This document shows, piece by piece, positions 9,313-25,167 of a stretch of 64,000 nucleotides of DNA; within the stretch, counting starts at the first letter, position 1; each line of letters opens with the position of its first letter. The notes beneath the pieces were generated by a model. That model worked only from the letters and a program-made list of their open reading frames with translations, did not search any database and was not told where the DNA came from. Location of the stretch: the NCBI GenBank assembly GCA_963744145.1, contig CAVUSO010000001.1:5376001-5440000 (forward strand). Direction: 5' to 3'. Origin of the DNA: an uncultured cyanobacterium (GTDB lineage Bacteria; Cyanobacteriota; Cyanobacteriia; Cyanobacteriales; CAWUOF01). Position numbers and translations under genes: made by a program.

Positions 9313-9574
9313 ATTGTGCTGTATTCCTCATTATCCAAGCTAAATAATCAAGTCAGTTCAGGTTAAAGTTCTTAGTTCAGACTACCTCTGGTTAATTTTA
9401 ATGCTCAAAACAGATTAATACCTATGCTACAGTTATACTCTATCAATAAACCGGATCAACAGCCCAATGCTTTTTCACCGATCTAACCAGCAATATTTCT
9501 TAGGAGGTCGATCGCTGTAAACCTATGAACACAAAGTATTTAAAAGATCACTGAGTATCAGCGATAACCAGAAT

Positions 9575-11509
9575 ATGGAAACCCATTTTGATATAACACT
9601 GCTGATAGTTCTCACAGTCATTGCAGGGATTGGTGCCCAAGTTTTGGCTGACTATCTCAAAGTCCCTGCGATCGTATTTTTGCTGCTATTTGGCATTCTT
9701 CTGGGTCCCGATGGCTTTGGTTTACTACATCCCCACCTGTTGGGTACTGGTTTGGAAGTGATGGTTTCCCTGTCTGTCGCACTAATTTTATTTGAGGGAG
9801 GTCTTAATCTAGAGCTAAAAGAACTGGGCAAGGTTTCTGGTAGTTTGCGAAATCTAGTCACTTTTGGCACTCTCATTACTTTAATGGGAGGTAGTATCGC
9901 AGCTCACTGGCTCGGTGAATTTCCCTGGTCTCTAGCTTTTCTCTATGCTTCTTTAGTCGTGGTCACTGGTCCAACAGTTATTGGTCCACTACTCAAACAA
10001 GTACAGGTAGATCGGCAAGTAACAGCTTTACTAGAAGGGGAAGGTGTTTTAATCGATCCAGTTGGAGCAATTTTAGCAGTTTTAGTGCTAAATATCATTT
10101 TAAACGGGGGTGCTGATCCGATCGGGTTACTGACGGATTTAATTATTCGTTTAGGTATTGGTGTTGTTATTGGTGGGATTGGTAGTTGGTTGTTAGGCTT
10201 TTTTCTCAAACGAGCCCAATTTCTTTCGGAAGATTTAAAAAGTTTAGTAGTTTTAGCCGGATTGTGGGGTTTATTTGGTTTAGCCCAATTAATTCGCTCA
10301 GAAGCAGGATTAATGGCCACAGTAGTTGGTGGGATGGTGTTAAGAGCATCCTCTGTACCCGAAGAGCGATTATTGCGACGATTTAAAGGAAAGCTAACGA
10401 TTCTGGCTATTTCGGTCTTATTTATCCTTTTGTCAGCAGATCTATCGATCGCGAGTATTATCGCTTTAGGCTGGGGTAGTGTTTTTACTGTTTTGGCGTT
10501 AATGTTTATTGTCCGTCCGTTAAATATCGGGTTTTGTACCTGGAATAGCGGATTTAATTGGAGACAAAAATTATTTTTATGTTGGGTCGCTCCACGGGGC
10601 ATAGTTTCAGCGTCTGTCGCGTCTTTATTTTCGATTTTGCTCACCCAGCGCGGTATTACTGGTGGAGATTCCATTAAAGCACTTGTTTTCTTGACGATTA
10701 TTTTAACTGTTTTTATCCAAGGACCAACTGCTAAATTATTAGCCCATTGGTTGCAAATCACCTCAACTCAAGCAACTGGAGTGGTAATTGTTGGCAGTAA
10801 TCCTTTAAGTCGATTAATTGCACGGTTATTTCAAGAGCGTGAAGAATCAGTAGTTGTAATTGATACAGATGCGGAAGCTAGTCGTTTAGCAGAACAAGAA
10901 AATATTAAAGTTTTTGTTAGCAGTGGTTTAGATACTGCGGTATTAGAAGAAGCGGGATTAGCATCGGTTGGCACTTTTCTCGCCATGACCAATAATGGTG
11001 AAGTAAATTTAGTCTTAGCCCAAAGAGCGGCTGAAGAATTTAAACCTCCCAGAGTATTAGCTGTATTCCCTCGTGATCCTCAAGTAAATACAGTCAATCA
11101 TAGCCTCAAAATTGATCAGGCTTTTCTTCCCGATATCGTGATTAAAATTTGGAATCAATATTTGATTGATGGTGATGTTAAGTTAGGAGAAACGATTCTC
11201 AAAGAATTAGAATTTGAATTTCAAGAAATTCATTTACAAGCATTGATTCGTTCTGGAGAATTAATGCCCTTGTTAATTGAACGGGATGAGCATTTAATGG
11301 TAATTCCAGCTACTGAAACCTGGGAACCGGGCGATCGAATTATTTATTTGTTCCATGATCCCAAACCGAAAATATTAAAACTTCTATCTGGTACTAGTCA
11401 AGCTAAACTGATTTTGGAAAAACAACCAGCTGTAGAAGAAGTCCCAATTCCAGTTTCTGCTCGAGAAAATTCCCTAGCAGAAACCGAAGCATCTCTCCCT
11501 CAGCCCTAA
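9575..11509 (+). CDS. CPA1 cation:proton antiporter with C-terminal TrkA-N/RCK domain
   Basis: ILFEGG, VVTGPTVI, EGVLIDP and APRGIVSA motifs; Rossmann-like VVIVGS C-domain. Confidence 0.88.
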   Translation: METHFDITLLIVLTVIAGIGAQVLADYLKVPAIVFLLLFGILLGPDGFGLLHPHLLGTGLEVMVSLSVALILFEGGLNLELKELGKVSGSLRNLVTFGTLITLMGGSIAAHWLGEFPWSLAFLYASLVVVTGPTVIGPLLKQVQVDRQVTALLEGEGVLIDPVGAILAVLVLNIILNGGADPIGLLTDLIIRLGIGVVIGGIGSWLLGFFLKRAQFLSEDLKSLVVLAGLWGLFGLAQLIRSEAGLMATVVGGMVLRASSVPEERLLRRFKGKLTILAISVLFILLSADLSIASIIALGWGSVFTVLALMFIVRPLNIGFCTWNSGFNWRQKLFLCWVAPRGIVSASVASLFSILLTQRGITGGDSIKALVFLTIILTVFIQGPTAKLLAHWLQITSTQATGVVIVGSNPLSRLIARLFQEREESVVVIDTDAEASRLAEQENIKVFVSSGLDTAVLEEAGLASVGTFLAMTNNGEVNLVLAQRAAEEFKPPRVLAVFPRDPQVNTVNHSLKIDQAFLPDIVIKIWNQYLIDGDVKLGETILKELEFEFQEIHLQALIRSGELMPLLIERDEHLMVIPATETWEPGDRIIYLFHDPKPKILKLLSGTSQAKLILEKQPAVEEVPIPVSARENSLAETEASLPQP

Positions 11510-11584
11510 TCAAAAAGCTCAACCGCTCCATAAATGGAAAAAGGGTGTTGTTACACCCTCTGTTACCTGATGCGAGTTTAGAAC

Positions 11585-12373
11585 TTAAATTTCTACATCA
11601 GAGTTAGTCATTAACTGTTTCAGAGAATCTAAGCCTTTTTTAACTCGACGGGAAACGGTGACAGCACTGATCCCTAACCGATCGGCTGTTTCTTTCTGGG
11701 TCAGATCGTGAAGAAACACGAATTCTAAAATGTCACGAGTCCGCTCTTCTAATTTAGCCAGAGCTTGTTGGAGACGCATGACATCTTCTTGCGCTAGTTG
11801 AAAACTACGATAATTATGATCCGGAACCAAATCCCCTAGGGAAGTAGCATCATCATCATCATCACCATCCTTAAGTGGGGCATCAAGACTTAAGGGAACC
11901 CGATTCCGACAAGCCAATTTAATTTCCTGCCATTCTGAGACTGTAATTCCCAGAGCCGCAGATATTTCTTTATCTGTAGGTTGTCTATTTAGCTGTAAAT
12001 GTAGATTTTGAATTACGACCGCGGCTTGACGTTCCAAATCAAGCCAATGTCTGGGAATCCGCACCGATGGACTTTTATCTCGTAAGTAATGTTGAATCTC
12101 TCCGCGAATATACGGAATCGCGAAGGAACTAAAAGCATGGCCTTTAGAAATATCAAATCTTTCGATCGCCCGGATTAATCCTAAACTACCTACCTGAAGC
12201 AAATCATCATAGCTTTCAGTACATTGATTAATCCAGTGGTGTGCTTCTTTTCTAACCAGTCCAAAGTTTAATTTAACTAACTGGTTACGGATTTGAGTTG
12301 AAGGAGAGCGATGATACTCCGCCAACAATTCTAAATTTTCGTTTCTGAGTTCGTTGATGACTGGGGTAATCAT
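11585..12373 (-). CDS. sigF: RNA polymerase sigma factor SigF
   Basis: DLLQVGSLGLIRAIERFD, FSSFAIPYIRGEIQHYLRD, region 4 LTQKETADRLGISAVTVSR; start placed at ATG 12373 (ORF is open to 12478). Confidence 0.92.
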   Translation of the reverse strand: MITPVINELRNENLELLAEYHRSPSTQIRNQLVKLNFGLVRKEAHHWINQCTESYDDLLQVGSLGLIRAIERFDISKGHAFSSFAIPYIRGEIQHYLRDKSPSVRIPRHWLDLERQAAVVIQNLHLQLNRQPTDKEISAALGITVSEWQEIKLACRNRVPLSLDAPLKDGDDDDDATSLGDLVPDHNYRSFQLAQEDVMRLQQALAKLEERTRDILEFVFLHDLTQKETADRLGISAVTVSRRVKKGLDSLKQLMTNSDVEI

Positions 12374-12781
12374 GGCAACATTCAGCTGGTGAGGAAACCT
12401 AAGTAGTAATTTGTTATACTTAAGTCTTAATTTATTTTCGAGAGCTTTGTCGTGATTTGCGACACATTTCTTCAACAAAAAGGCCAGATAAACTTTGATC
12501 TACAAGATTTGCTTGCAAATAACCATATTAGAGGGAAAACTTGATCAATTTATGGCCAGAGTTAGAACTTTGATGATCTACCTGGGCAGCCCTAAATTAG
12601 CGGCCTTCTCTTTTATATTATATTTATCTGCCGATCCGATCCAAAACAGTAGTTATACTAAAATTACACCCAAAAACCGGATCAATTGATTAAGATTCAT
12701 AACTCTGATTAACACTTAATCCGAATTATGGCAAATTACCTGCCTCAGACGGGTCCTGAGGGAGGTAAAAGCCAATATTAT

Positions 12782-13615
12782 TTAGGACTGTGCTGGTTGG
12801 ATGCGAGCATAAAACGTACCACTAATCTTAACTTCGAGAGCTTCTTTCGCTCCTAAGTCAGTATCAGAAGGCTGTTCACTCAGAAAAGTTCCGGCAATTT
12901 CGCCAGTGTTGCTGTCAACTTGAGCGACTTGCAGAGAGATTTTACCTTTTGTGGTTTCAAAACGCTTGCTGTTAGAACGAGTTAGTTCTTCGCTATCTGC
13001 ATGGGATGGAAGAGCAACTGCATTATCATATCCTGTGGCTAATCCACGACCTTTGGGATCAAGGAAATTAGAAGTCCGATAAGATGGGACTTTAAATTCT
13101 CCACTAAAGTCAGTTGAAGTAGTAATGCTCGATGTGTCGGGTTTGCTGCTTGCTACTAAACCTTTAATTGAGAAGAGGAAAGGTACACGCTCACCTCCAG
13201 GTAATTGAACTGTGATGGCTTGATAGTCAAATCCATCTTTTTCAAAAAAAGTTAGACTACCATCAGCTTGAGGTTTTAAATCACCTTGGACTTGAGCAAT
13301 GGTCGTAGTATATCTGGTCATCAATTTCCCAGGTACAAATTCCGCTTCTAAGCGTTTGCTCGAACTTTCTTCTTTGACCTGATAGCTAGTGGGCTGTAAA
13401 CACAATTCGCTCAAAGTGTAGGATTGGCTAGGATCAATGGGAATTGCTCCTCGAGTTGTTTCTTGAAGTTCAGGACATTTATTGGCTATTCCTGTTCCGA
13501 GAATATCATCGTAGGTCAGTTTAGCCGGATTGGCTGATGCCGGTCCTTCGCTACAAGCGGTTAATATACTTAAGCAAAATGCTAAAAAAGCAACAATTAA
13601 AGCGCGATATTTCAT
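12782..13615 (-). CDS. psbO: Photosystem II manganese-stabilising protein PsbO
   Basis: GTGIANKCP, TVQLPGGERVPFLF, FLDPKGRG, QPSDTDLGAK. Confidence 0.97.
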   Translation of the reverse strand: MKYRALIVAFLAFCLSILTACSEGPASANPAKLTYDDILGTGIANKCPELQETTRGAIPIDPSQSYTLSELCLQPTSYQVKEESSSKRLEAEFVPGKLMTRYTTTIAQVQGDLKPQADGSLTFFEKDGFDYQAITVQLPGGERVPFLFSIKGLVASSKPDTSSITTSTDFSGEFKVPSYRTSNFLDPKGRGLATGYDNAVALPSHADSEELTRSNSKRFETTKGKISLQVAQVDSNTGEIAGTFLSEQPSDTDLGAKEALEVKISGTFYARIQPAQS

Positions 13616-13908
13616 TGTAAACCTCTATCCAAAATGGGCTAAGATTCGGGGCCAGTGAAATTGTGAATCGGGGCGAAAGAGCTGATCCCTAGAGGAGACC
13701 GTGATTGGAAATGAGCGAATCACCTGAATTTGGCGATCGCTAGCTGCTCCTCATGGTCCATTAAACTGCTGCCAGATGTAGGTCTATTATTAAGAATTTC
13801 TGGAATTTTTCGGCCCGATCCCGTAAAGCATTTTACAGAAAAAAGTAACCTTATGCACAATTCATTTTTAATAGTGGATAATTGCTACTTTAGATTTCTG
13901 GTAATTTA

Positions 13909-13976
13909 TGGGACAGACAAGATGTCCGTCCCACCAGAAAAAAAAACTCTTGTGGGACAGTCATCTTGACTGTCCT
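13909..13976. repeat. Inverted pair of REP-like palindromes (TGGGACAGACAAGATGTCCGTCCCA / GGACAGTCATCTTGACTGTCC)
   Basis: Two imperfect hairpins with complementary loops, downstream of the 14032-14286 gene. Confidence 0.65.
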
Positions 13977-14031
13977 AGTTATTTTTGCAAGAGATTTTTT
14001 GACTAATGAGATTTACCACTCCAGTTTGAGG

Positions 14032-14286
14032 TTAGGTATTTAATTGCTGTAACAACCAGTCATCTACGGGTTGACCATCTCGACGTTTGAGTTCAACTTC
14101 TACTACTTTGACTAAGTTTGACCCAGGTGGTGCAGGTTTTTCACGAAAATTAATCTCATACAATGCTGGATCTTGATTTCTTTCACGTAACCAATCTTGT
14201 ACCTTCATGGTGGCAAAAAATGATTGTCCTTCTGCAAACATGCGGGTAATTTGCATTTGTAAATTATAGGGCTCAAACCGAGGCAT
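14032..14286 (-). CDS. Small hypothetical protein, probably conserved in cyanobacteria
   Basis: GGAG RBS, 84 aa, co-oriented downstream of alaS. Confidence 0.75.
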   Translation of the reverse strand: MPRFEPYNLQMQITRMFAEGQSFFATMKVQDWLRERNQDPALYEINFREKPAPPGSNLVKVVEVELKRRDGQPVDDWLLQQLNT

Positions 14287-14343
14287 ACATAACTCCTGGA
14301 TCTGATTATCTATCTTTGGGCAGAGTTGGGTCTGCCCAATTTC

Positions 14344-16992
14344 TTAATGACTTAAAGCTGACTTTAACTGACTATAGGCATATTTCAGTGCTTCTGATAA
14401 TTTGCTTGGGTCACGTCCCCCCGCTTGGGCTAAATTGGGTTTTCCCCCACCACTACCTCCACAAATTTTGGCGATCGCCCCAATAAATTTCCCAGCTTGT
14501 AATCCTGTACTATTGACACTGGGACTAAAAGCTGCGACCAAACGCACTTTATCTGGTTCAGGAATTGACCCCAAAATTACCGCTCCCTGACTACCCAATT
14601 TTTGTAACAATCGTTCAGCGACAATTTTTAAGGATTCAGGGTCAACATCAGCTAAATCAGCGACAATGATTTGGAAATCACCGATAGTTTCCACTTGATT
14701 AAGTAATTGGTCAGATTTAGCGATCGCTAAATCAGTTTTCAAGACTTCTAAATGCTTCTGAGTAGTTTTCAGTTCTCCCTGTAAAGCACTGACCCGTTCT
14801 GGTAATTCTTCTGGTTTAACCTTAAAGCGATCGCACAGTTCCCGGACTACTTGATCGCGCACTTGCAGATACTCTAACACCGATAGACCAGCCACAGCTT
14901 CAATCCGTCGCACTCCAGCCGCTACACCAGACTCAGATATAATCTTAAACAACCCAATTTCCGCTGTATTACTAACATGTGTTCCTCCGCACAATTCCAT
15001 TGATACACCAGGAAAATCCAATACTCGGACAGTTTCACCGTATTTTTCCCCAAACATCGCGATCGCACCTTGAGCTTTTGCTTGTGCTAAGGACATTTGC
15101 GTAATTTGAGCCAGATGAGCTTCACTAATCCAGGTATTTACCTGTGCTTCAATTTTTTGTAAGTCGGTTGTATTCACAGGTTTAGAACTATTAAAATCAA
15201 ACCTCAGTCGCTCAACCGTTACCAATGAACCAGCTTGAGATATATTCGGATCAACTATTTTCTTCAAAGCTGCTTGTAATAGATGGGTTGCTGTATGATG
15301 AGCTTGAATTCGACGACGACTAGCTTGATCAATCTGAGCCGTTACTACATCATTGACTCCTAATGTACCACGTTCAATCCGACCAAAATGAATAAAAAAA
15401 TCGGCTTCTTTTTGTACATCTTCAATCTGCACTAAAACATCCGCACCAGTTAGATAACCTCGATCACCAATTTGCCCTCCCGATTCAGCATAAAAAGGTG
15501 TACGATCTAAGATAATTTGCACCTGATTTCCCGCTGATACAACTGGTTCAGATTTACCATCAATCAGGATCATTTCTACTTTTGCGATCGCTTGGGTGTG
15601 ATCATATCCTACAAACTCAGTAGCTGACATATTTTCGGCTAACTGAGCTAAGGAACCTTGCACAGTCAGATCAATAGTTTCGTGAGCTGCTTGCGATCGC
15701 TGAGTTTGTGCTTCCATTGCTGTTTCATACCCAGTCACATCAACCGTAAATCCTTGTTCCTGGGCAATTTCCTGAGTTAATTCTAAAGGAAAACCGTAGG
15801 TATCATAGAGAGTAAAAGCATCCCGACCATCAATTTGACTGGTTCCTGCTTGCTTGACTCGCTCTAAAATTTCTGATAGTAATTTTTCACCTCTTTCTAA
15901 AGTTTTCAGAAATTGAGATTCTTCTCGTTGCAATTCTGCTTTAATCGCTGTTTCTTTTTGACGAACTTGGGGATAAGCGCTTTCTGACAACTCGATCGCT
16001 GTTTCTGCTACTTGAGTAGTAAATTCCTCGGAAATCCCAATCAATCTACCATGACGTACTACTCGACGAATTAATCGACGTAACACATAACCTCTGCCCA
16101 CATTAGATGCCCGAATTTCATCCGCAATCATGTGGACGATCGCTCGAATATGGTCTCCAATTACTTTCAGTGAAACTTTCGTTTTATCGTCGGCTTTAGT
16201 ATAGTCAATCTGAGCAATTTCCGCTGCGGTTTTGATAATTGGTAAAATTAGATCGGTTTCATAATTATTCGGCACTTTTTGGAGAATTTGTGCCATCCGT
16301 TCTAATCCCATTCCCGTATCAATATTTTTGCTTTGGAGGGGAGTTAAGTTTCCTTCGCTATCACGATTATATTGCATGAACACCAGATTATAAAATTCGA
16401 TAAATCTGGTGTCATCTTCTAGATCAATATCAGCGTTACCTTGTTCTGGGTGAAAATCATAGTAGATTTCTGAACATGGACCACAAGGACCAGTGGGACC
16501 AGAGACCCAGAAATTATCTGCTTCTCCCATCCGTTTAATTCTTTCTGGGACTACCCCAATGCGATCGCGCCAAATTGCATAAGCTTCATCATCTTCAACA
16601 AAAACACTCACTACCAGATTGTCTGGGGATAAACCAAATATTTTGGTCGATAGTTCCCAACCCCAAATAATTGCTTGTTCTTTGAAATAGTCTCCAAAAC
16701 TAAAGTTACCGAGCATTTCAAAGAAAGTATGATGTCTGGCTGTGTGCCCGACATTTTCGATATCATTAGTACGAATACATTTTTGGGAAGTAGTAGCGCG
16801 TTTAAATTCACTAATTCTCTGTCCAAGGAAAATTGGTTTAAATGGCAACATTCCGGCAATTGTTAATAGTACCGTCGGATCTTCAGGTACTAAGGATGCA
16901 CTCGGCAGAATTTGGTGTCCTCGCTCGGCAAAAAAGTCGAGAAATTTTTGTCGAATGTCACTACCGCTAAGAAATTGGGGAGAGGAAGGCAT
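14344..16992 (-). CDS. alaS: Alanine--tRNA ligase
   Basis: [55 protein letters not shown]-terminal DHHA1 domain. Confidence 0.98.
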
Positions 16993-17124
16993 AGTTTAGA
17001 TCAGCAATGTTGGTCAACTAGACATCTATTTTCACATTTTGGTTCAAGTTCCAGCCACTTGATTTATGTCAAATTTTCACTCAATGTAAACATAAATTAA
17101 GGTAGCGCCAACTAGCCAGCAAAA

Positions 17125-17177
17125 AGTTTAAATTAATGTAAATAACTATTGTAGTTTCAGAGATGGTCTGTTAGGTT
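17125..17177 (+). promoter_or_regulatory. Promoter of candidate sRNA 1 with an imperfect HLR1 (RpaB-type) repeat
   Basis: AGTTTAAA-TT-AATGTAAA (17125-17142), then TTGTAG-N17-TAGGTT with extended TG. Confidence 0.5.
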
Positions 17178-17183
17178 AATAAT

Positions 17184-17468
17184 TATAGATAAGAGGGCAA
17201 GAAAAAAGGAGGAAAAACCAAGGCTGTTGCAGTTTAATGTCCATGATCACGAACCTAATCGCAGTATTCGCGCTAGCATAGTGGGTAATGGCAAAAAGCC
17301 TTGAGTGTCTAGGGCATAGTCAAACCAAAGTCCAGAAAGACTTAACTATGCACAATCTGATCAAGTTATAGCTGCGAAGTAAGTTCACTTGTTGATGGTT
17401 AATTTTGGAAAAATCTCAATTCTTACCTAATCGCCAGCCCAGTCCAACTTGACTGGGCTTGAGTTTTT
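17184..17468 (+). ncRNA. Candidate structured sRNA, paralogue 1 (ends approximate)
   Basis: Promoter, stems AAGGCTGTTGC/GCAAAAAGCCTT and GCATAGT/ACTATGC, terminator; colinear similarity to 17553-17865. Confidence 0.55.
17436..17468 (+). terminator. Intrinsic terminator
   Basis: AGCCCAGTC-caactt-GACTGGGCT followed by a T-rich tail. Confidence 0.75.
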
Positions 17469-17493
17469 GGGGAGAAATTCGGGGCGATCGCCA

Positions 17494-17546
17494 AATGTAA
17501 ATTAATGTAAATAACTCTTGGCAATAATTAGCGATAGTGCTAAGTT
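17494..17546 (+). promoter_or_regulatory. Promoter of candidate sRNA 2 with a perfect HLR1 (RpaB-type) repeat
   Basis: AATGTAAA-TT-AATGTAAA (reverse strand TTTACATT-AA-TTTACATT), then TTGGCA-N17-TAAGTT with extended TG. Confidence 0.6.
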
Positions 17547-17552
17547 AATAGT

Positions 17553-17865
17553 AGAGATCAATCAGCTCGAAAGAAAAAACGAGCAACCCAAAAGGTCTAG
17601 GCGTGGTCTCTCCGGTCTAAGACCAGATCGTAACAGCAATGAAAGTAAAGTGGAAAAGGCTAAAGACCCCTAGTTAGATAGGGCGAGGCGATCAGTCCGA
17701 TTAGGACATCACTTGTAAGAATGTTATAGTTGCCAAGTTGCGATAATTTGTAAACCCTTAGCAAGCTGACCGTTAACAAATCTCTGGTATTGTCTCCAAT
17801 TGAACAATTTTGTCATTGATTTTCCACCGGGCTTAGTTACCGTTAACTAAGCCCGTTGAGTGTTG
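17553..17865 (+). ncRNA. Candidate structured sRNA, paralogue 2 (ends approximate)
   Basis: Same promoter layout as copy 1; stems GGTCT/AGACC, TGGTCT/AGACCA, GTCC/GGAC; terminal hairpin. Confidence 0.55.
17828..17855 (+). terminator. Terminator-like hairpin
   Basis: CGGGCTTAGTTA-ccgt-TAACTAAGCCCG, perfect 12-bp stem. Confidence 0.7.
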
Positions 17866-17895
17866 GCGGCAATAATTAATTATCAGATCAAGTAA

Positions 17896-19632
17896 ATGGG
17901 CTCTACCATCCAACCCTTACCCGTAGAAGTAGTAAATCTGATTGCTGCGGGTGAAGTAATTGATTCTTTAGCCGCAGTAGTACGAGAATTAGTAGAAAAT
18001 GCGATCGATGCAGGTGCCACCAGAATAGTTGTTTCTGTGTGGCCCGAGCTTTGGCGGGTCAGAGTAGCTGATAATGGAATGGGAATGGATTTAGCAGATT
18101 TACAGCAAGCGGCGATCGCCCATAGTACCAGCAAAATTCATCATCGTGAAGATTTATGGAAAATTACCAGTTTAGGATTTCGGGGTGAAGCTTTACATAG
18201 TTTAACTCAATTAGCAGAACTGGAGATAATTAGCCGGAAAATTAACAGTCCGGAAGCTTGGCGGGTCGTTTATAATGCCCAAGGAGAGACAATTGAGGTA
18301 GAACCAGCAGCGATCGCACCTGGGACGATCGTCACAATCTCAAATTTATTCGGTAGTTGGACAATTCGTCGTCAAGGATTACCAACACCAGCACAACAAC
18401 TGCGAACAGTTCAAGCGACAATTAATCAAATTGCCATTTGTCATCCGCAGATTACTTGGAAAATTCAACAGGAATTTCGTGATTGGTTTACAATTAGTCC
18501 TGGGATTACCGCTCAACATATTCTCCCACAAATTATTCGTGATGTTAGCTTTAGTGACTTGCAACAGTTAAAAATTAAAGTTCCAAGTGGGCATGAGAAT
18601 CAATTATTAACCGATGATTTTATTACTGAATCGACCAGCACTACAGAACCAAAGTCTGATGCAGAAATTGAAGTAATTCTAGGTTTACCAGATCGATGTC
18701 ATCGACGCAGACCGGATTGGGTAAAAGTAGCAGTGAATAAAAGGATTGTGCGATCGCCAGAGTTAGAACAAATTTTAATTAATGGGTTTGCTCGGACCTT
18801 ACCGCGCGATCGCTATCCCCTCTGTTTTCTCCATCTGGAAATTTGCCCAAGTCAAATTGATTGGAATCGACATCCAGCTAAAACCGAAATCTACCTACAT
18901 CACCTTAGTTATTGGCAAACCCAAATAGCGAGTGTAATTGAACAAGCTTTACGCTTAAATCAAGAAACCATTACGGAAACAGCTCTAACTGGGCAAGTAA
19001 GTAAATTAATCAAAGCTGCCGAAGCCAAGAGCGGTTATCATGTCAACCGTACTATCACTAATACTAGCACAGATCGTCAGGGTTGGCCAGGGATAGAACT
19101 ACGTGCGATCGCCCAAGTTCGCCAGACCTATATTTTAGCAGAATATCCGGATGGAGCCTGGTTAGTAGAGCAACATATTGCACATGAGCGCGTCTTATAT
19201 GAACAGTTATGCGATCGCTGGCAATTAGTCTCTCTCGAACCACCGATAATTTTGAATCAACTATCTCCAGCTCAATTAGATCAACTACAACGAATTGGAA
19301 TCGAAGTGGAACCCTTTGGGGAACAACTTTGGGCAGTACGCAATGCTCCGGAGAGTCTGGTCCGCAGAGCCGATTGTTCACCAGCGCTATTAGAACTAAG
19401 TTTAGGAGGTGACTTACAAACCGCTCAAGTAGCTACAGCTTGTCGTACTGCCATTCGTAATGGTACTAAGCTTAACCTAGAAGAAATGCAAACTTTATTA
19501 AACCAATGGCAACAGACACGGAATCCGCGGACTTGTCCCCATGGACGTCCAATTTATTTATCATTAGCAGAGTCCCATCTTGCTCGTTTTTTTCGCCGAC
19601 ATTGGGTAATTGGCAAAAGTCATGGTATTTAA
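17896..19632 (+). CDS. mutL: DNA mismatch repair endonuclease MutL
   Basis: IAAGEVI, ELVENAIDAGA, LGFRGEAL, EQHIAHER, ACR, CPHGRP. Confidence 0.95.
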   Translation: MGSTIQPLPVEVVNLIAAGEVIDSLAAVVRELVENAIDAGATRIVVSVWPELWRVRVADNGMGMDLADLQQAAIAHSTSKIHHREDLWKITSLGFRGEALHSLTQLAELEIISRKINSPEAWRVVYNAQGETIEVEPAAIAPGTIVTISNLFGSWTIRRQGLPTPAQQLRTVQATINQIAICHPQITWKIQQEFRDWFTISPGITAQHILPQIIRDVSFSDLQQLKIKVPSGHENQLLTDDFITESTSTTEPKSDAEIEVILGLPDRCHRRRPDWVKVAVNKRIVRSPELEQILINGFARTLPRDRYPLCFLHLEICPSQIDWNRHPAKTEIYLHHLSYWQTQIASVIEQALRLNQETITETALTGQVSKLIKAAEAKSGYHVNRTITNTSTDRQGWPGIELRAIAQVRQTYILAEYPDGAWLVEQHIAHERVLYEQLCDRWQLVSLEPPIILNQLSPAQLDQLQRIGIEVEPFGEQLWAVRNAPESLVRRADCSPALLELSLGGDLQTAQVATACRTAIRNGTKLNLEEMQTLLNQWQQTRNPRTCPHGRPIYLSLAESHLARFFRRHWVIGKSHGI

Positions 19633-19682
19633 TTAGTGGTTAGTTGTTGTGTTAGTTTTGCAAAAAAAAGGTAAATAGACAA

Positions 19683-20474
19683 ATGACCAAAGCTCTAGCA
19701 TCTCTCAAGAATAACATTTGGTTTCGGATTTCTATTTATGTCAATATTTTTCTCATTTATGCTATTGGTTACTCGGCTTATAAGCTCGGTCTGATCGACC
19801 AGTTTGTATCTAATGTGATGCAGATGAATCCTCAAATAGTTAATAGTATGGCTGCGTACTTAGTACCAGGAGATAATCTCAGCTCTACTCCCTGGTGGCA
19901 AGATGAAGTCAAAAATCAAGTTTTAATCACGCAAACTAAAAAATATAATGCCTGTTTATTTGGAGATTCAATCTCTTCGATGTTGGGAAATACCCTGGGG
20001 AATAATAATTTTAATTTTTCCTTATCAGGGATGAGTACGGTTTCTCTAATTGAACAACTAAAAATTTTAAATAATGCTCAGGTAAAATGCGATCGGGCTA
20101 TTATTGCGATCGGTACTAATGATGCTGCTTATGCGATCGAAGATGAGCCATTTGTGAATAATATGAAAGATATAATTGCCAAAGTGAGACAGATGGGGGC
20201 AAGCCGAATCACTCTAATTCCTGCGTTTTATTCAACCCTAGAAGCTAGCTTCAATCCAGGTCTTGCGGGAACAATTACTAGAGTAGAAGAAATTAATGCT
20301 CTGATTCGTCAGGTAGCAGTGAGTGAAAATGTTTTGGTATCGGTCGAAACAATTAAACCTTTATTTAAGGAACAAGAGTTAAAATCAAATTTGACCATAG
20401 ACGGAGTTCATCTGAATGCTGATGGTAGAGATATTTATCGAAAATCGTTATTAAAAATAATTGGTGGTTCATAA
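19683..20474 (+). CDS. SGNH/GDSL hydrolase, paralogue 1 (N-terminal TM anchor)
   Basis: FGDSI, IGTND, DGVH. Confidence 0.85.
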   Translation: MTKALASLKNNIWFRISIYVNIFLIYAIGYSAYKLGLIDQFVSNVMQMNPQIVNSMAAYLVPGDNLSSTPWWQDEVKNQVLITQTKKYNACLFGDSISSMLGNTLGNNNFNFSLSGMSTVSLIEQLKILNNAQVKCDRAIIAIGTNDAAYAIEDEPFVNNMKDIIAKVRQMGASRITLIPAFYSTLEASFNPGLAGTITRVEEINALIRQVAVSENVLVSVETIKPLFKEQELKSNLTIDGVHLNADGRDIYRKSLLKIIGGS

Positions 20475-20625
20475 AATGATCGGAGGGTAATCAAGTTAGA
20501 GTCGGAGTAAATCAGCATAAAATTATCTAGCTAAATGCTACTAATCTGGTAAACTAGTATAGATTTATGGTATTTAATTAAGTATTAGTGCTATTACTTT
20601 CGCATCTAAAAAGGTAAATTAGCCC

Positions 20626-21414
20626 ATGACAAAATGTCGAAAACCAATCAAAACTAACATCTGGGTCAAGATTTCAGTGCATTTGCATATTTTTCTGATC
20701 TATATGATTGGTTACTCAGCTAATCGACTCGGTATTCTGGATGCTAACTTATCTAAGGTATTTCCGCTCAACCTAGAAATAGTTAGTAGTGCTGTTGCGT
20801 CCTCAGTACCAGGAGATCATCTCACTGATGACCCAGCGTGGCAAGATCAAGTCCAATATGAAGTTTTCCTAACTCAAAATAAAAAATATAATGCTTGCTT
20901 GTTTGGAGACTCTATCTCTTTTACACTTGGTAATAACTTGGGAGATCATAATTTCAACTTTGCCCTCCCATCAGCGATGAGTACCGTTTCTCTAATTGAA
21001 CAACTCAAAATCTTAAATAATGGTAACTTAAAATGTGATCATGCGATTATTGCGATCGGCACCAATGATGCTGCTGATGCGATCGAAGATCAGCAATTTA
21101 TCAGCAATATGCAGAATGTAATTAGCCAAGTAAGACAGATGGGGGCAAATCGAATCACTCTGATTCCAGCTTTTTACTCAACTTTAGCAGCAATCAACAA
21201 CCATCAAGCCGGAACCATCAGTAGAGTAGAACAAATTAACACTTTGATTGGTTATATAGCAGCCAAGGAAAAGGTAAAAGTTGCCGCAGCAGTAATTCAA
21301 CCTTTATTTACTCAACAAACATTAAATCCAAATTTCACTATAGATGGATTTAATCTAAATGTAGATGGTCGAAAAATCTATCGAGCATCCTTATTAAACA
21401 TGATCGCAGAGTGA
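20626..21414 (+). CDS. SGNH/GDSL hydrolase-like protein, paralogue 2 (catalytic His absent)
   Basis: FGDSI and IGTND present, but DGFN replaces DGVH. Confidence 0.8.
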   Translation: MTKCRKPIKTNIWVKISVHLHIFLIYMIGYSANRLGILDANLSKVFPLNLEIVSSAVASSVPGDHLTDDPAWQDQVQYEVFLTQNKKYNACLFGDSISFTLGNNLGDHNFNFALPSAMSTVSLIEQLKILNNGNLKCDHAIIAIGTNDAADAIEDQQFISNMQNVISQVRQMGANRITLIPAFYSTLAAINNHQAGTISRVEQINTLIGYIAAKEKVKVAAAVIQPLFTQQTLNPNFTIDGFNLNVDGRKIYRASLLNMIAE

Positions 21415-21466
21415 GCAAATTAGAGTCAGAATGAAAAGATGATATTAAACCTAGTAAGATAGAACT

Positions 21467-22186
21467 ATGAAAAGAAAACTTTTAGCGATCGCTCTGAGTC
21501 CGGTACTAATATCTTCATTAGTTACCCCAGTTAAAGCTGCAAATAGGCTCGAACTTAAACAATCACGAGAAATATTAGTCGCACATCTATCTCTCATTGA
21601 GACTCCTTGGTGGCAAGATGAAGTCAAATATCAAGTTTTTCTGACTCAAAATCAACAATTAAATGCCTGTTTATTTGGAGACTCTCTTTCTTCCTGGTTA
21701 TGGAATACCCTGGGAAAGAATAATTTTAATTTTTCCTTATCGGAAATGAGTACCATTTCTCTTACTGAACAACTAAAAATATTACATAACGCTAAGGTAA
21801 GATGCAATCACGCGATCATTGCGATCGGCACCAATGATGCTTCTTATCCGACGATGACAGGTGAACAATTTTTCCTGAATCTGAAAAATATTATCATGCA
21901 AGTGAGGAGTATGGGGGCAACCCGAATCACTCTAATTCCAGCTTTTTACTCAACCTTAGCAGCAATCAACAAGCATTATGCAGGAACAGTTGCCAGAATA
22001 GAAGAAATGAACTATCTGATTCGTCTGATCGGAGTCAGTGAAAATGTCATAGTTGCCGAAACAGCAATTCAACCCTTATTTACCCAACAATCATTAAAAT
22101 CAAATTTCACACTTGATGGAGTTCATCTCAATGCTGATGGGAAAAAACTCTATCGAGAATCCTTGTTAAAAATTATTGGGGAATAA
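21467..22186 (+). CDS. SGNH/GDSL hydrolase, paralogue 3 (signal peptide)
   Basis: FGDSL, IGTND, DGVH; N-terminus resembles that of the downstream pentapeptide protein. Confidence 0.85.
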   Translation: MKRKLLAIALSPVLISSLVTPVKAANRLELKQSREILVAHLSLIETPWWQDEVKYQVFLTQNQQLNACLFGDSLSSWLWNTLGKNNFNFSLSEMSTISLTEQLKILHNAKVRCNHAIIAIGTNDASYPTMTGEQFFLNLKNIIMQVRSMGATRITLIPAFYSTLAAINKHYAGTVARIEEMNYLIRLIGVSENVIVAETAIQPLFTQQSLKSNFTLDGVHLNADGKKLYRESLLKIIGE

Positions 22187-22237
22187 GCAAATTTGGGGAA
22201 GAGTAGAATAGTCTTAAATCTAGTAATATGTAGGTAT

Positions 22238-23357
22238 ATGCAAAGAAAATTTTTAGCGATCGCTGCTAGTTCAGTCCTAATCTGCTGGTTAGCTACCCCA
22301 GCTCAAGGAGCAAATAGTCTCCAGGTTAAACAGTTACGGGATACCAATAAATGTCCAAGATGTGATTTAAGTAGTGCCCATCTGGGTGGACTGGATCTGA
22401 GTGGAGCAGATTTAACCGAAGCTAATCTAAGTGATGCTGATTTAGTAGGAACTAATTTAACCGGTGCTAAACTATGGAATGCTAACTTAGTCAAAGCTGA
22501 TTTAAGAGGTGCTATTTTAGCAGTAGCAAATTTAGAAAGAGCTCAACTAGGAAGTGCCAAATTCTGGGGTGCTGATCTGAGAGGAATTAACCTCAATTAC
22601 GCTAAATTAGGAAGAGCGAACCTTAAGGGTGTCGATCTCAGAGAAGCGAAATTAATTAATGCTAAGTTAACTTTTACTAATTTAATCGAAGCTAACCTCA
22701 AAGGTGCCCAGCTAAATGCGGCTGATTTAAGTAATGCTAACCTGAATATGGCTGACTTAGAAAGTACCGATTTGGATGGTGCTAATCTCACTGGTGCAGA
22801 TTTAAGACAAACTTATTTAGGTGATAGTAATTTACGTGGTGCCACTCTGATCGGTGCCAAACTTCAGGGTGCAACTTTAGTAGCAGCTAGTTTAGCTTCA
22901 ACTAAGTTAAATTTAGCAGATTCTGAGTTTAGCAAAATTAGCAGATGCGAATCTCAGTGGTGCTGATTTAACTGGAGCAAATTTAGCAAATGCAGACTTA
23001 AGAAAAGCGATTTTAAGTAAAGCCAATCTCACGGGGGCTAATTTGACTGGTGCTAAACTTATTAAGGCTTATTTATATACGGCTAATTTATTGACAGCAA
23101 ACTTAAATAAAGCCGATCTCAGTGGTGCTAATTTAACTCAAGCAATTTTGAAATTAGCAAACTTAAAAGGTGCAAATTTAGCAGGTGCTGATTTAACTCA
23201 GGCTGATTTAACTCAAGCAAATTTAAGGTTAGCTAATTTAAACGAAGCTAATCTCACTAATGCTAATCTAACCAATGCTAATTTGAGGGATACGGATTTT
23301 ACCTCAACTAACTTAACTGGTACTAATGTCACTGGGACACTTTTAAGCGATCGCTAG
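22238..23357 (+). CDS. Exported pentapeptide-repeat protein, split by a +1 frameshift near 22921
   Basis: Signal peptide, CPRCDL, A(D/N)Lxx repeats; removing one T in GATTCTG gives continuous ...LADLSLAKLADANLSGA into the 23043-23357 frame. Confidence 0.85.
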
Positions 23358-23503
23358 TTTTCCCAGATTGATTGAGACTAACAAGCAGCGATTATCCGGA
23401 CAGAAAGAGGACTTCAGCAATTAAATCCTGTGGGACAACAGACGGAGTAAAAATTATGGGTAAGTTGGCAAAACGCGAGATTAGTTAATTCTAAACCTGA
23501 TTT

Positions 23504-23779
23504 ATGGAATTTGAATGGAATCCAGATAAAGCAACGCGAAACTTTGAGAAGCATGCTGTTTCATTTCAGGAAGCAGCAACTGTATTTAATGACCCCCTAT
23601 CTGTCACATTTCTCGATCCTCAGCATTCCATCAGAGAGCATCGCTATGTTATAATTGGCAGATCTGTTTTTGGGCAACTTTTAATTGTTGCACATACTGA
23701 TCGAAAAGAAAAAATACGAATTATCAGCGCCCGAAAAGCTACTCGCCAAGAGCAGAGGTTTTATGAAGAAGGATATTGA
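23504..23779 (+). CDS. BrnT-family toxin
   Basis: MEFEWNPDKA..NFEKHAVSF..A, RIISARKAT. Confidence 0.9.
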   Translation: MEFEWNPDKATRNFEKHAVSFQEAATVFNDPLSVTFLDPQHSIREHRYVIIGRSVFGQLLIVAHTDRKEKIRIISARKATRQEQRFYEEGY

Positions 23780-24008
23780 GAACGAAATGGAAGATGAATT
23801 ACTTTCTGAGTATAACTTTGCTCAGATGTCAGGAGGTGTTAGAGGTAAGTATGTTGAACGATATCGTGCAGGGACAAACTTAGTGCTTTTAGATCCCGAT
23901 GTTGCCCAAGCTTTTCCCAATGAGACAGCAGTAAATGACGCACTGAGGATGTTAATCCAGATTGCACAGCGTCAACAATTAAATCCTGTGGTGCAACAGA
24001 CGGAATAA
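23763..24008 (+). CDS. BrnA-like antitoxin
   Basis: Overlaps the toxin 3' end; VRGKY..LLDPDVAQAF..AVNDALR; start placed at ATG 23763. Confidence 0.75.
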   Translation: MKKDIENEMEDELLSEYNFAQMSGGVRGKYVERYRAGTNLVLLDPDVAQAFPNETAVNDALRMLIQIAQRQQLNPVVQQTE

Positions 24009-24024
24009 AAATTATCAGTGAGAT

Positions 24025-24053
24025 GCGTAGGTGTAGCCAGCCGCAGGCATCGC
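24025..24053. mobile_element. 21-nt insertion within a HIP1 site (SDR5-like)
   Basis: GCG + TAGGTGTAGCCAGCCGCAGGC (21 nt) + ATCGC. Confidence 0.6.
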
Positions 24054-24115
24054 AATTCCGGGACTTCCGAATAATCAGGTAGTAATATAGAGATAATTTC
24101 TAGAAGGCAATAAAT

Positions 24116-24490
24116 ATGACAACCCTAACCAACGAACAAACAGCGATTATCCGGACAGAAAGAGGACTGGCGATCGCAGGTACACGCATCACGATCTACG
24201 ACATTATGGACTATGTGACGGCTCAATATCCGCCGAAGTTTATCAGGGGATTATTTGACCTGACAGAGGAACAAATTAACGCGGCTTTAGCTTATATTGA
24301 TGTCAATCGTGCCAGTGTTGAAGCCGAGTATCAAATGGTTCTTAAGGAAGCAGAAGAACTGCGACTGTACTATGAAGAAAAAAATCGCGATCTCATTGCT
24401 CGACTTGCAGCCCAACCACCACAACCAGGAACCGAAGCTGCATGGGAAAAACTGCGAGCAGCCAAGGCAAAACGTGAGGCTAAAGCATGA
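24116..24490 (+). CDS. DUF433 antitoxin-like protein
   Basis: IAGTRITIYDIM...LTEEQINAALAY. Confidence 0.88.
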   Translation: MTTLTNEQTAIIRTERGLAIAGTRITIYDIMDYVTAQYPPKFIRGLFDLTEEQINAALAYIDVNRASVEAEYQMVLKEAEELRLYYEEKNRDLIARLAAQPPQPGTEAAWEKLRAAKAKREAKA

Positions 24491-24883
24491 TTTTTTTTGA
24501 TCGATCATAATCTCAATGGACAGGCCCTAATTTTCTTTGGCTCTATTGCTAATCAAGGTTGGCTTGATATCATTCCAATTCGTTTTGTTACCTTTGCACA
24601 AATGGAATTGCCAATCAATAGCGATGACAGAGTAGTTTGGCGACTTGCTCAAGCAAATCAAATGATTTTACTTACAGCTAGTCGCAGTATGAAAGGTAAG
24701 GATTCTTTAGAACAAATAATGCGCGAAGAAAATACTCCTAATTCATTACCTGTGATTACTATTGGAAACGCGGATCGATTACTGAATGATTCGGAATATC
24801 GAGAACGTTGTGTGGAAAGTCTAATTGAGATTGTGCTTAATATTAATAGCTATATAGGTGTAAGTAGGCTTTTGATCCCATAA
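24487..24883 (+). CDS. DUF5615 PIN-like protein (partner of DUF433); one extra T in the T8 run just after the ATG
   Basis: ATGA overlap at 24487; a T7 run would give MIFLIDHNL; DDRVVWRLAQANQMILLT. Confidence 0.75.
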
Positions 24884-25167
24884 TGTGGGGTCGGGAGATT
24901 GTAGAAATAGTGCGATCGCCCTCAGTTTTTATGAGAACCGCAAAGATGCAGAGGGAAAGATAATTGTAAATTTTTGAGGCGATCGCACTTTACTTTTTTC
25001 CGGGTTCTGAAGTGAGAGGAGAGATGAATTTATGGAAGCAATCTTAACCCCGATTTGGTTTTAGCGATCGCCATAATTGACTATCCAGTTTCTAGCGATC
25101 GCAATTTTCATCTCCAAATAAGGATTAATTAGTTAAACTAGAGGGATCAAAATGGAGGAAACGCCGG

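What the first reader, a model, noticed from the sequence alone, without database searches (positions are those of the whole stretch)
17125..17865. Tandem pair of paralogous structured sRNA candidates with HLR1 promoters between alaS and mutL
Seen: a gap of about 780 bp without ORFs holds two units with the same layout. Each has AATTAATGTAAATAACT(A/C)TTG, an HLR1-like repeat 6 bp before the -35, a 17-bp spacer, TGnTA(G/A)GTT, about 280-300 nt of body, and a strong hairpin followed by TTGAG. The bodies are diverged but colinear (AGTGGGTAATGGCAAAAAGCC vs AGTGGAAAAGGCTAAAGACC; GTTATAGCTGC vs GTTATAGTTGC). Equivalent stems differ in sequence: GGCT/AGCC vs GGTCT/AGACC, and a following stem with an AGTCC-led inner hairpin. 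Established: HLR1 is the RpaB site, and sites just upstream of -35 are generally activating. Inference: two light-regulated structured RNAs of one family that I cannot name.
Basis: partly seen in the sequence, partly recalled or inferred. Interest (0 to 1): 0.75.

Follow-up and report, generated by a model that had tools for sequence, protein, structure and literature searches.

The report
Widespread pseudoknotted cyanobacterial RNA family
Two side-by-side genes between alaS and mutL belong to a family of large, predicted-pseudoknotted non-coding RNAs found across many cyanobacteria, likely switched on by the light regulator RpaB and likely acting by binding a protein; the family also unites two very abundant Nostoc RNAs that were reported separately and left unexplained.

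Summary
Both units have an HLR1 box centred at -50.5, an extended -10 and a terminal hairpin.

They belong to a family with no Rfam match. A covariance model finds it at 35 bits or more in 65 of 150 genomes of the order (my count), and a broader model finds it in other cyanobacterial orders. Stems covary, including a pairing of the 5' end with a hairpin loop (predicted pseudoknot; 104 of 110 copies). A near-invariant, apparently unpaired UGU(A/C)(A/C)ACC(C/U)UAGU follows a dispensable multi-helix domain. Arrays reach six copies.

Two Northern-verified, unnamed Nostoc PCC 7120 sRNAs (2462444f, 268249f; PMC4734099), described separately as heterocyst-group specific, are both members. It is not PmgR1, which this genome carries elsewhere. 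Unit 2 keeps the pseudoknot and motif; unit 1 keeps the central domain.

RpaB control is inferred and the mechanism is untested. My best guess is a protein-titrating RNA (0.45); a base-pairing sRNA is the main rival (0.3).

The parts
14344..16992 (-). alaS, divergent neighbour; upstream neighbour of the RNA in 29 of 76 family loci
   Evidence: Pfam tRNA-synt_2c E 6e-211; neighbour clustering
17125..17142 (+). HLR1 (RpaB-type) box of unit 1, 2 mismatches, centre -50.5
   Evidence: a site at about -51 is the low-light-activating position (PMC6525291 passages)
17149..17177 (+). -35 (17149-54) and extended -10 (17169-77) of unit 1; predicted +1 about 17184-17185
   Evidence: sequence; promoter consensus of 106 family promoters
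17184..17466 (+). unit 1 RNA (predicted): pseudoknot module eroded, central domain intact, motif degenerate
   Evidence: R1 106 bits (in training), R2 58 bits (not in R2 training); P1 only 5.5 of 7
17260..17376 (+). unit 1 central domain: P3 17260-65/17371-76, P4 17276-81/17346-51, P5 17289-92/17319-22, P7 17329-32/17339-42
   Evidence: all pairs standard; matches the MFE of this segment
17380..17394 (+). degenerate copy of the conserved motif in unit 1
17436..17468 (+). unit 1 terminal hairpin with U-rich tail (intrinsic-terminator-like)
17494..17511 (+). HLR1 box of unit 2, perfect match, centre -50.5
17518..17546 (+). -35 (17518-23) and extended -10 (17538-46) of unit 2; predicted +1 about 17553-17554
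   Evidence: sequence; the mapped TSS of the Nostoc member lies 8 nt after its -10
17553..17860 (+). unit 2 RNA (predicted): pseudoknot module and motif intact, central domain partly eroded (P4 weak)
   Evidence: R1 101 bits, R2 73 bits (in training of both); one metatranscriptome contig lies on 17598-17771
17553..17624 (+). unit 2 pseudoknot module: P1 17553-59/17605-11 (7 of 7 pairs, changed against the consensus), P2 17594-17624
17629..17742 (+). unit 2 P3-closed central domain (P3 6 of 6, P6 5 of 5, P7 4 of 4)
17749..17761 (+). conserved, apparently unpaired motif UGU(A/C)(A/C)ACC(C/U)UAG of unit 2
   Evidence: profile over 94 copies; position
17825..17858 (+). unit 2 terminal hairpin (12 bp core) without a U-run, 37 nt before the mutL start
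17896..19632 (+). mutL, downstream neighbour, possibly read through from unit 2
   Evidence: Pfam; read-through is inference

Best explanation
The two units are paralogous genes of a widespread cyanobacterial non-coding RNA family, each with an HLR1 box at -50.5 so that RpaB likely drives them in low light or stress, and the abundant RNA likely works by binding and titrating a protein through a predicted 5' pseudoknot and a conserved unpaired motif. Shown: the family, its covarying helices, the conserved promoter layout, and transcription of two Nostoc members at the predicted start and length (published). Inferred from established RpaB rules: activation in low light and shut-off in high light. 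Inferred only: that P1 and P2 form together as a pseudoknot; that P3 brings the pseudoknot and the motif together as the binding core; that the P4-P7 junction is a second, separable binding module; and that extra copies with their own promoters raise dose. In this genome, and in the sister-genus locus L082, the two modules appear split between the two tandem copies.
For: Covariation on a structure-blind MAFFT alignment: 17 of 28 pairs changed on both sides, 46 such cells vs 18.8 shuffled, 0 of 500. P1, P2b and terminator: 16 of 22 pairs, 0 of 500. Model-fitted alignment of 100 distinct copies: 27 of 28 (leans to the model). P1 lies outside both models, yet cognate pairing reaches 6 or more of 7 in 104 of 110 copies, mean 6.58 vs 5.72 for swapped partners, and 6 or more in 14 of 14 held-out hits from other orders. 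Protein-binding-like traits: conserved unpaired junction residues and a large fold; motif positions 2-3 are A or C and never G in 94 copies, which is not a wobble pattern; 151,091 and 608,990 dRNA-seq reads for the Nostoc members; arrays of up to 6 copies, each with its own promoter; free-standing genes with varied neighbours. No frame is conserved and the motif gives no mRNA-target signal.
Against: No protein partner was identified and no neighbouring gene travels with the RNA. The HLR1 match is loose in many copies: 2 or fewer mismatches in only 50 of 109, with best centres at -50 (51), -60 (18) and -70 (27). No light-response data were found for any member; the one measured response is nitrogen step-down. 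The loop left across a 7-bp P1 is only about 3 nt, so P1 and P2 could be alternatives rather than a pseudoknot. A C(C/U)CC anti-Shine-Dalgarno-like run sits in the P2 region of 77 of 110 copies and the motif has a C/U position, both of which fit base pairing. Related sequences inflate all shuffle tests. No match was found in the genus g10 genomes searched, so the RNA is dispensable in some lineages or missed there.
Confidence: 0.45

Rival explanations
1. A trans-acting base-pairing sRNA under RpaB control, like PsrR1 or ApcZ. The seed is the unpaired motif or the CUCC/CCUCCU run of the P2 loop, which the 5' strand (P1) masks until processing or refolding exposes it.
For: C(C/U)CC in the P2 region of 77 of 110 copies and CCUCC in 14; C/U variation in the motif; own promoter and terminal hairpin; RpaB-sRNA loops are established for PsrR1 (passages).
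Against: The motif's best hybrids against 6,038 ORF start regions of this genome (top-10 mean -19.1 kcal/mol) are no better than four shuffled seeds (-17.6 to -20.3). The A/C-only positions would change target letters. About 200 nt of covarying multi-helix fold is more than a seed-plus-terminator sRNA usually keeps (own knowledge).
Confidence: 0.3
2. A ligand-sensing or catalytic RNA in which P1 and P2 switch, or the P4-P7 junction binds a metabolite or ion, acting in trans or on its own read-through into the next gene (mutL here).
For: Pseudoknot plus multi-way junction with conserved joining residues; unit 2's hairpin lacks a U-run and ends 37 nt before mutL.
Against: Downstream genes vary and are often convergent; the Nostoc RNAs accumulate at full predicted length; the junction is deleted in many copies; no Rfam riboswitch or ribozyme match.
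Confidence: 0.12
3. A domesticated guide or scaffold RNA of a mobile-element nuclease (omegaRNA- or tracrRNA-like), kept as chromosomal arrays.
For: Tandem arrays, 5' pseudoknot and modular inserts resemble such scaffolds (recalled, not tested); a TnpB-like ORF (my reading of the translation, not Pfam-tested) lies next to 2 of 76 loci.
Against: Array copies are near-identical with no variable guide-length stretch; no match in plasmids or phages; stable synteny with alaS or an aldo/keto reductase; no Rfam HEARO, tracr or IS-RNA match.
Confidence: 0.07
4. A dual-function or small-peptide mRNA; some copies, including unit 1, have AGGAG(G) in the 5' linker.
For: AGGAG before the loop in 20 of 69 copies; small ORFs of 22-51 aa inside the units.
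Against: No frame is open in more than 34 of 69 copies and landmark-to-motif distances fall in all three classes mod 3; peptides are unrelated between copies.
Confidence: 0.06

Closest known systems
Nostoc sp. PCC 7120 sRNA 2462444f (Brenes-Alvarez et al. 2016, PMC4734099)
   Same: Same family. Locus L326 reads the same as the published 258-nt sequence (compared by eye) and scores 70 bits with R1, which was built without Nostocales copies. Same promoter layout, start at the P1 strand, P2, central domain, motif and terminal hairpin.
   Different: Published as an unnamed sRNA restricted to heterocystous cyanobacteria (24 homologues by BLASTN). In the passages I read it has no structure, RpaB link or mechanism. 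It lies beside an aldo/keto reductase in relatives, not alaS, and is single-copy.
Nostoc sp. PCC 7120 sRNA 268249f (same paper)
   Same: A second subfamily (type B): same order of P1, P2, P3, P4 and motif; a type-B profile reciprocally hits type-A loci; same reported regulation.
   Different: 340 nt, longer central domain, 5' AGG(C/U)ACA; only 15.9 bits with the type-A model R1, so membership rests on landmarks, the reciprocal profile and R2; not linked to 2462444f as a paralogue in the passages read.
PmgR1 / Ncr0700 of Synechocystis 6803
   Same: Similar size, very abundant, an HLR1-like run upstream of the -35, and a short AAACCCUAGU stretch.
   Different: No significant model match either way (3.8-6 bits); different long-range pairing; this genome has its own PmgR1 homologue at C1:5631348-5631655 (E 7.6e-18).
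PsrR1 and ApcZ (RpaB-linked base-pairing sRNAs)
   Same: RpaB-type promoter logic in cyanobacteria (for PsrR1; ApcZ function passage).
   Different: PsrR1 has HLR1 over the start site and is high-light induced; both are about half the size with little conserved structure; no Rfam match here.
CsrB/RsmZ-type and 6S-type protein-titrating RNAs
   Same: Works-like analogy: abundant, condition-induced, multi-copy RNAs with displayed single-stranded motifs (own knowledge).
   Different: No repeated GGA loops and no 6S-type long hairpin with a central bubble; no Rfam match.

Membership tests
2462444f/268249f family (defined here) | covariance-model match to the P2-P7-motif core | tested here: met
   unit 1 58 bits with R2, which lacked it in training; unit 2 73 bits; the published 2462444f locus scores 70 bits with R1 built from the units and non-Nostocales copies
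2462444f/268249f family (defined here) | 5' strand pairs with the P2 loop (P1) | tested here: met
   unit 2: 7 of 7 pairs; unit 1: 5.5 of 7, eroded
2462444f/268249f family (defined here) | motif UGU(A/C)(A/C)ACC(C/U)UAGU after P3 | tested here: met
   unit 2 17749-61 with one extra base; unit 1 degenerate
2462444f/268249f family (defined here) | transcribed as a discrete RNA from the predicted start | tested here: inconclusive
   for this organism only one 201-nt metatranscriptome contig on unit 2 (the run was found with this stretch); shown for the Nostoc members in print
RpaB low-light-activated regulon | HLR1 direct repeat centred near -51 | tested here: met
   0 and 2 mismatches, centre -50.5 (rule)
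RpaB low-light-activated regulon | RpaB binding and high-light repression | not testable with these tools
   needs EMSA or ChIP and a light-shift Northern
PmgR1/Ncr0700 | profile match to PmgR1 homologues | tested here: not met
   PmgR1 profile scores the units at or below -3.3 bits and finds a separate locus in the same genome; R1 gives 3.8-6 bits on PmgR1 loci
Any Rfam 15 family (6S, PsrR1, Yfr, NsiR, riboswitches, HEARO, tracrRNA) | cmscan match | tested here: not met
   only a chance Y_RNA hit (E 3.6) on the unit 1 hairpin; none on family copies in the loci scanned
CsrB/6S-like protein-titrating RNA (works-like) | stoichiometric binding of a regulatory protein | not testable with these tools
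   the PatR CLIP-seq table could not be reached; no pull-down data seen
trans-acting base-pairing sRNA | seed with conserved mRNA targets | tested here: inconclusive
   single-genome scan of the motif shows no excess over shuffles; the CUCC loop and cross-genome conservation were not scanned
TnpB/IscB omegaRNA or Cas12 tracrRNA | linked nuclease gene and variable guide segment | tested here: not met

The most novel reading that the evidence does not exclude
This is an undescribed class of large structured RNA, older than the split of several cyanobacterial orders, that forms the RNA arm of the RpaB light/redox response. Among the most abundant small RNAs of filamentous cyanobacteria, it sequesters a core factor (a transcription, translation or RNA-decay protein) through a pseudoknot-plus-motif core. 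A plug-in multi-helix domain gives a second binding function, and the two functions can be split between tandem paralogues, as in this window.
Probability: 0.3. Interest if true: 0.88.

Novelty: new variant of a known kind. Interest (0 to 1): 0.72.

Why it matters
Large, highly structured bacterial RNAs with covarying pseudoknots are rare and have often turned out to be new RNP or ribozyme classes (own knowledge). This one is present in most filamentous cyanobacteria sampled, including Nostoc, Microcoleus and Oscillatoria, and two members are already verified as abundant transcripts in a genetically tractable model. Linking 2462444f and 268249f as paralogues explains why a single knockout could look silent, and gives a direct experiment: a double deletion, with an RpaB-based prediction of when the RNAs matter. 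It also overturns the 'heterocystous only' distribution and adds a conserved RNA output to the RpaB regulon that the Synechocystis-based literature would not have seen.

Tried and rejected
PmgR1 membership: rejected. One search's profile contained two mis-extracted rows; they were dropped.

Rfam: no match. Direct blastn with the window region found mostly chance hits; 14 of 61 genomes matched at E 0.01 and I read 11 of those loci. L013 was a real homologue and L005 proved to be one on the other strand.

A helix between the purine-rich 5' linker and the U-rich stretch after the motif: no cognate preference in 73 copies (permutation p 0.83); it appears only in short copies by eye. Pairing of the motif with the 5' end: the variants do not track each other (by eye). 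Templating of heptamer repeats: this genome has few such repeats and none fits. mRNA targets of the motif: no signal. Conserved peptide: none. Mobile element: no plasmid or phage match.

R1 gives false hits below about 25 bits. L276, L278, L279, L280 and L330 lie in coding DNA, as do R2 hits L378 and L382. I therefore count 65 rather than 81 of 150 genomes; G068 and G083 were not inspected.

A type-B-only model was too long to calibrate, and alignment A13 was too poor to model. The metatranscriptome run X2 has no contig at 90% identity elsewhere in window 9000-25000; a hole proves nothing. Literature searches for a prior family description found none. The CRS screen PMC12873609 says it recalled only 7 of the 327 Nostoc sRNAs, all in Rfam, but its supplement was unreadable. 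The supplement of PMC11797042 was cut before the CLIP table. Four look-ups in earlier scan findings returned nothing.

Full report
WHAT IS THERE. The window is cyanobacterial by gene content: psbO, a group-3-type sigma factor, alaS and mutL. Between alaS (14344-16992, minus) and mutL (17896-19632, plus) lie two units of the same layout. Each has an HLR1 direct repeat (17125-17142, 2 mismatches; 17494-17511, none) centred at -50.5, a -35, a 17-nt spacer, an extended -10, about 280-310 nt of body and a strong hairpin. The bodies align better than all 500 dinucleotide shuffles. Unit 1 finds unit 2 as its only other relative in the 7.7-Mb genome, and both later RNA models find just these two strong copies. 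Rfam has no match.

THE FAMILY. A weak blastn hit (L013) proved to be a full homologue, also divergent from alaS. With it as query, 26 of 301 genomes of the order matched. Model R1 (21 copies, core P2 to motif) matched 81 of 150 order genomes at E 0.01. Some hits under 25 bits are false, so I count the 65 of 150 at 35 bits or more; training genomes are included. A pattern scan of named genomes stopped at 120 stretches and listed 80. Of these, 77 score with R1 at 41 bits or more; they are Nostoc, Anabaena, Nodularia, Calothrix, Tolypothrix, Chlorogloeopsis, Microcoleus, Oscillatoria, Symploca, Microseira and others. The three that do not score are non-cyanobacterial chance matches. A mixed model R2 matched 19 of 22 genomes of family f7, most with two or more hits, and 27 of 150 genomes in a class-wide sample centred on another order. 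I inspected 14 held-out hits from other orders: all have the P1 5' strand a few bases after an extended -10, and by eye an HLR1-like run, none of which is in the model. Two unicellular-family genomes also carry a full copy (L375, L376). Many families show no hit at this sensitivity, and none was found in the genus g10 genomes searched.

STRUCTURE. The order is: 5' strand of P1; a variable purine-rich linker; hairpin P2, whose loop holds the 3' strand of P1; P3 closing a central domain (P4, P5/P6, P7 with a GGAA-type loop); the motif; a U-rich stretch; the terminal hairpin. On structure-blind MAFFT alignments, 17 of 28 core pairs and 16 of 22 pairs of P1, P2b and the terminator change on both sides, with 0 of 500 shuffles reaching the covariation score. 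Sliding partners drops pairing from 82-92% to 27-44%. The model-fitted alignment gives 27 of 28 (it leans to the model). P1 pairs at 6 or more of 7 in 104 of 110 copies, mean 6.58 against 5.72 for swapped partners (kin are not independent, and three of the six low scores are a mis-picked -10). The motif over 94 copies is U-G-U-(A/C)-(A/C)-A-C-C-(C/U)-U-A-G-U. I found no covarying partner for it (by eye), and the tested linker-to-tail helix failed. Only about 3 nt separate P1 from P2's 3' strand, so coexistence as a pseudoknot is predicted, not shown.

MODULES. Four forms occur: type A (alaS-linked in 29 and aldo/keto-reductase-linked in 11 of 76 loci); type B (longer, often convergent with a metallophosphoesterase); short copies lacking the central domain, in arrays of up to one long plus five short, each with its own promoter; and copies with only the central domain. 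In the window, unit 2 has a perfect P1, P2 and motif but a weak P4. Unit 1 has intact P3-P7 but an eroded P1/P2 and motif. The sister-genus locus L082 shows the same split in the reverse order, which suggests divided function rather than simple decay (inference from two genomes).

WHAT IS IN PRINT. Brenes-Alvarez et al. 2016 (PMC4734099; I read part 2 of the text, the passages on Figure 5, and rows 22 and 122 of Table S3) list two unnamed Nostoc PCC 7120 sRNAs: 2462444f (258 nt, 151,091 reads, 24 homologues) and 268249f (340 nt, 608,990 reads, 18 homologues). Both were confirmed by Northern at the predicted size, were induced by nitrogen step-down independently of NtcA and HetR, and were called exclusive to heterocystous cyanobacteria. 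Locus L326 reads the same as 2462444f and scores 70 bits with R1, which had no Nostocales copy in training. Its mapped start sits at the P1 strand, 8 nt after the -10, with the HLR1-like run centred near -51. The 268249f locus scores only 15.9 bits with R1 but shows every landmark in order. A type-B profile hits type-A loci at the matching place, 123 hits against 1 on reversed sequences, and its P2, P3 and P4 pair in 77% of cells. I therefore treat the two as paralogues. Searches that found no description of the family. Subscription papers and two supplements could not be seen and may bear on novelty. Riediger et al. 2019 (PMC6525291, passages) place low-light-activating HLR1 sites at about -51. 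PmgR1 (passages of PMC6596454, PMC5386190, PMC8682795, PMC6693541, PMC8136920; sequence in the PMC6596454 supplement) is a different family, and this genome has its own copy elsewhere. I also read passages of PMC3610870, PMC11797042 and PMC12873609; none names these RNAs in the passages shown.

HOW IT MOST LIKELY WORKS. Step 1, shown for Nostoc members and inferred here: each gene makes a discrete, abundant RNA from the -10 to the hairpin. One 201-nt metatranscriptome contig lies on unit 2 with two substitutions and a 2-base gap, a weak hint only. Step 2, inferred: RpaB activates it from the -51 site. The -35 is poorly conserved while the repeat and extended -10 are kept, as expected for an activator-dependent promoter, but only 50 of 109 copies match HLR1 within 2 mismatches. 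Step 3, inferred: the RNA binds a protein through the pseudoknot and motif, with the central domain as a second module. For this: the size of the conserved fold, the A/C-only motif positions, the abundance, the copy-number expansion and the lack of a target or coding signal. Against: no partner is known, and an anti-Shine-Dalgarno-like C(C/U)CC in 77 of 110 P2 regions keeps base pairing alive. I give titration 0.45, base pairing 0.3, ligand sensing or catalysis 0.12, a domesticated guide scaffold 0.07 and a peptide 0.06.

VERDICT. The feature is real and not an artefact. Two members are known as transcripts, but I found no description of the family, its fold, its breadth, its RpaB-type promoter or the paralogy of the two Nostoc RNAs. 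Interest 0.72.

Noticed in passing
G000:C1:5631348-5631655 (outside the window): A PmgR1/Ncr0700 homologue (E 7.6e-18) with an HLR1-like run upstream, in the same genome as the new family.
   Followed up: partly
window 17858-17896: mutL starts 37 nt after unit 2's U-less hairpin with no TAnnnT in between, so it may be transcribed by read-through (actuaton-like); in L130 mutL is instead divergent from the RNA pair.
   Followed up: no
L099, L101, L103, L108, L118, L282, L283, L285, L384: Copies holding only the central domain, most followed by a conserved GGAGG-containing tail and a hairpin; possibly a separate sub-family.
   Followed up: partly
L109:2940-6380 and L110:2580-4373: Arrays of one long and four to five short copies beside alaS; short copies differ mainly in a 5-nt patch where the central domain is missing.
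   Followed up: partly
L041:957-1624, L027:960-1785, L045:1203-1664, L112:2947-3516: Family copies interrupted by insertions between the promoter, core and terminator; the inserts were not examined.
   Followed up: no
window 19683-22186: Three tandem GDSL/SGNH hydrolase-like paralogues directly after mutL (first confirmed by Pfam).
   Followed up: no
window 14032-14286: An 84-aa ORF downstream of alaS with no Pfam match.
   Followed up: no
L049:1430-1480 and homologues L287-L300: PmgR1 promoters also carry an HLR1-like run just upstream of the -35; PmgR1 is not named in the main text of the RpaB regulon paper.
   Followed up: no
window 17059-17101: A third, weaker GTAAA-containing repeat and a 12-bp inverted repeat between alaS and unit 1; may belong to the alaS promoter.
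   Followed up: no
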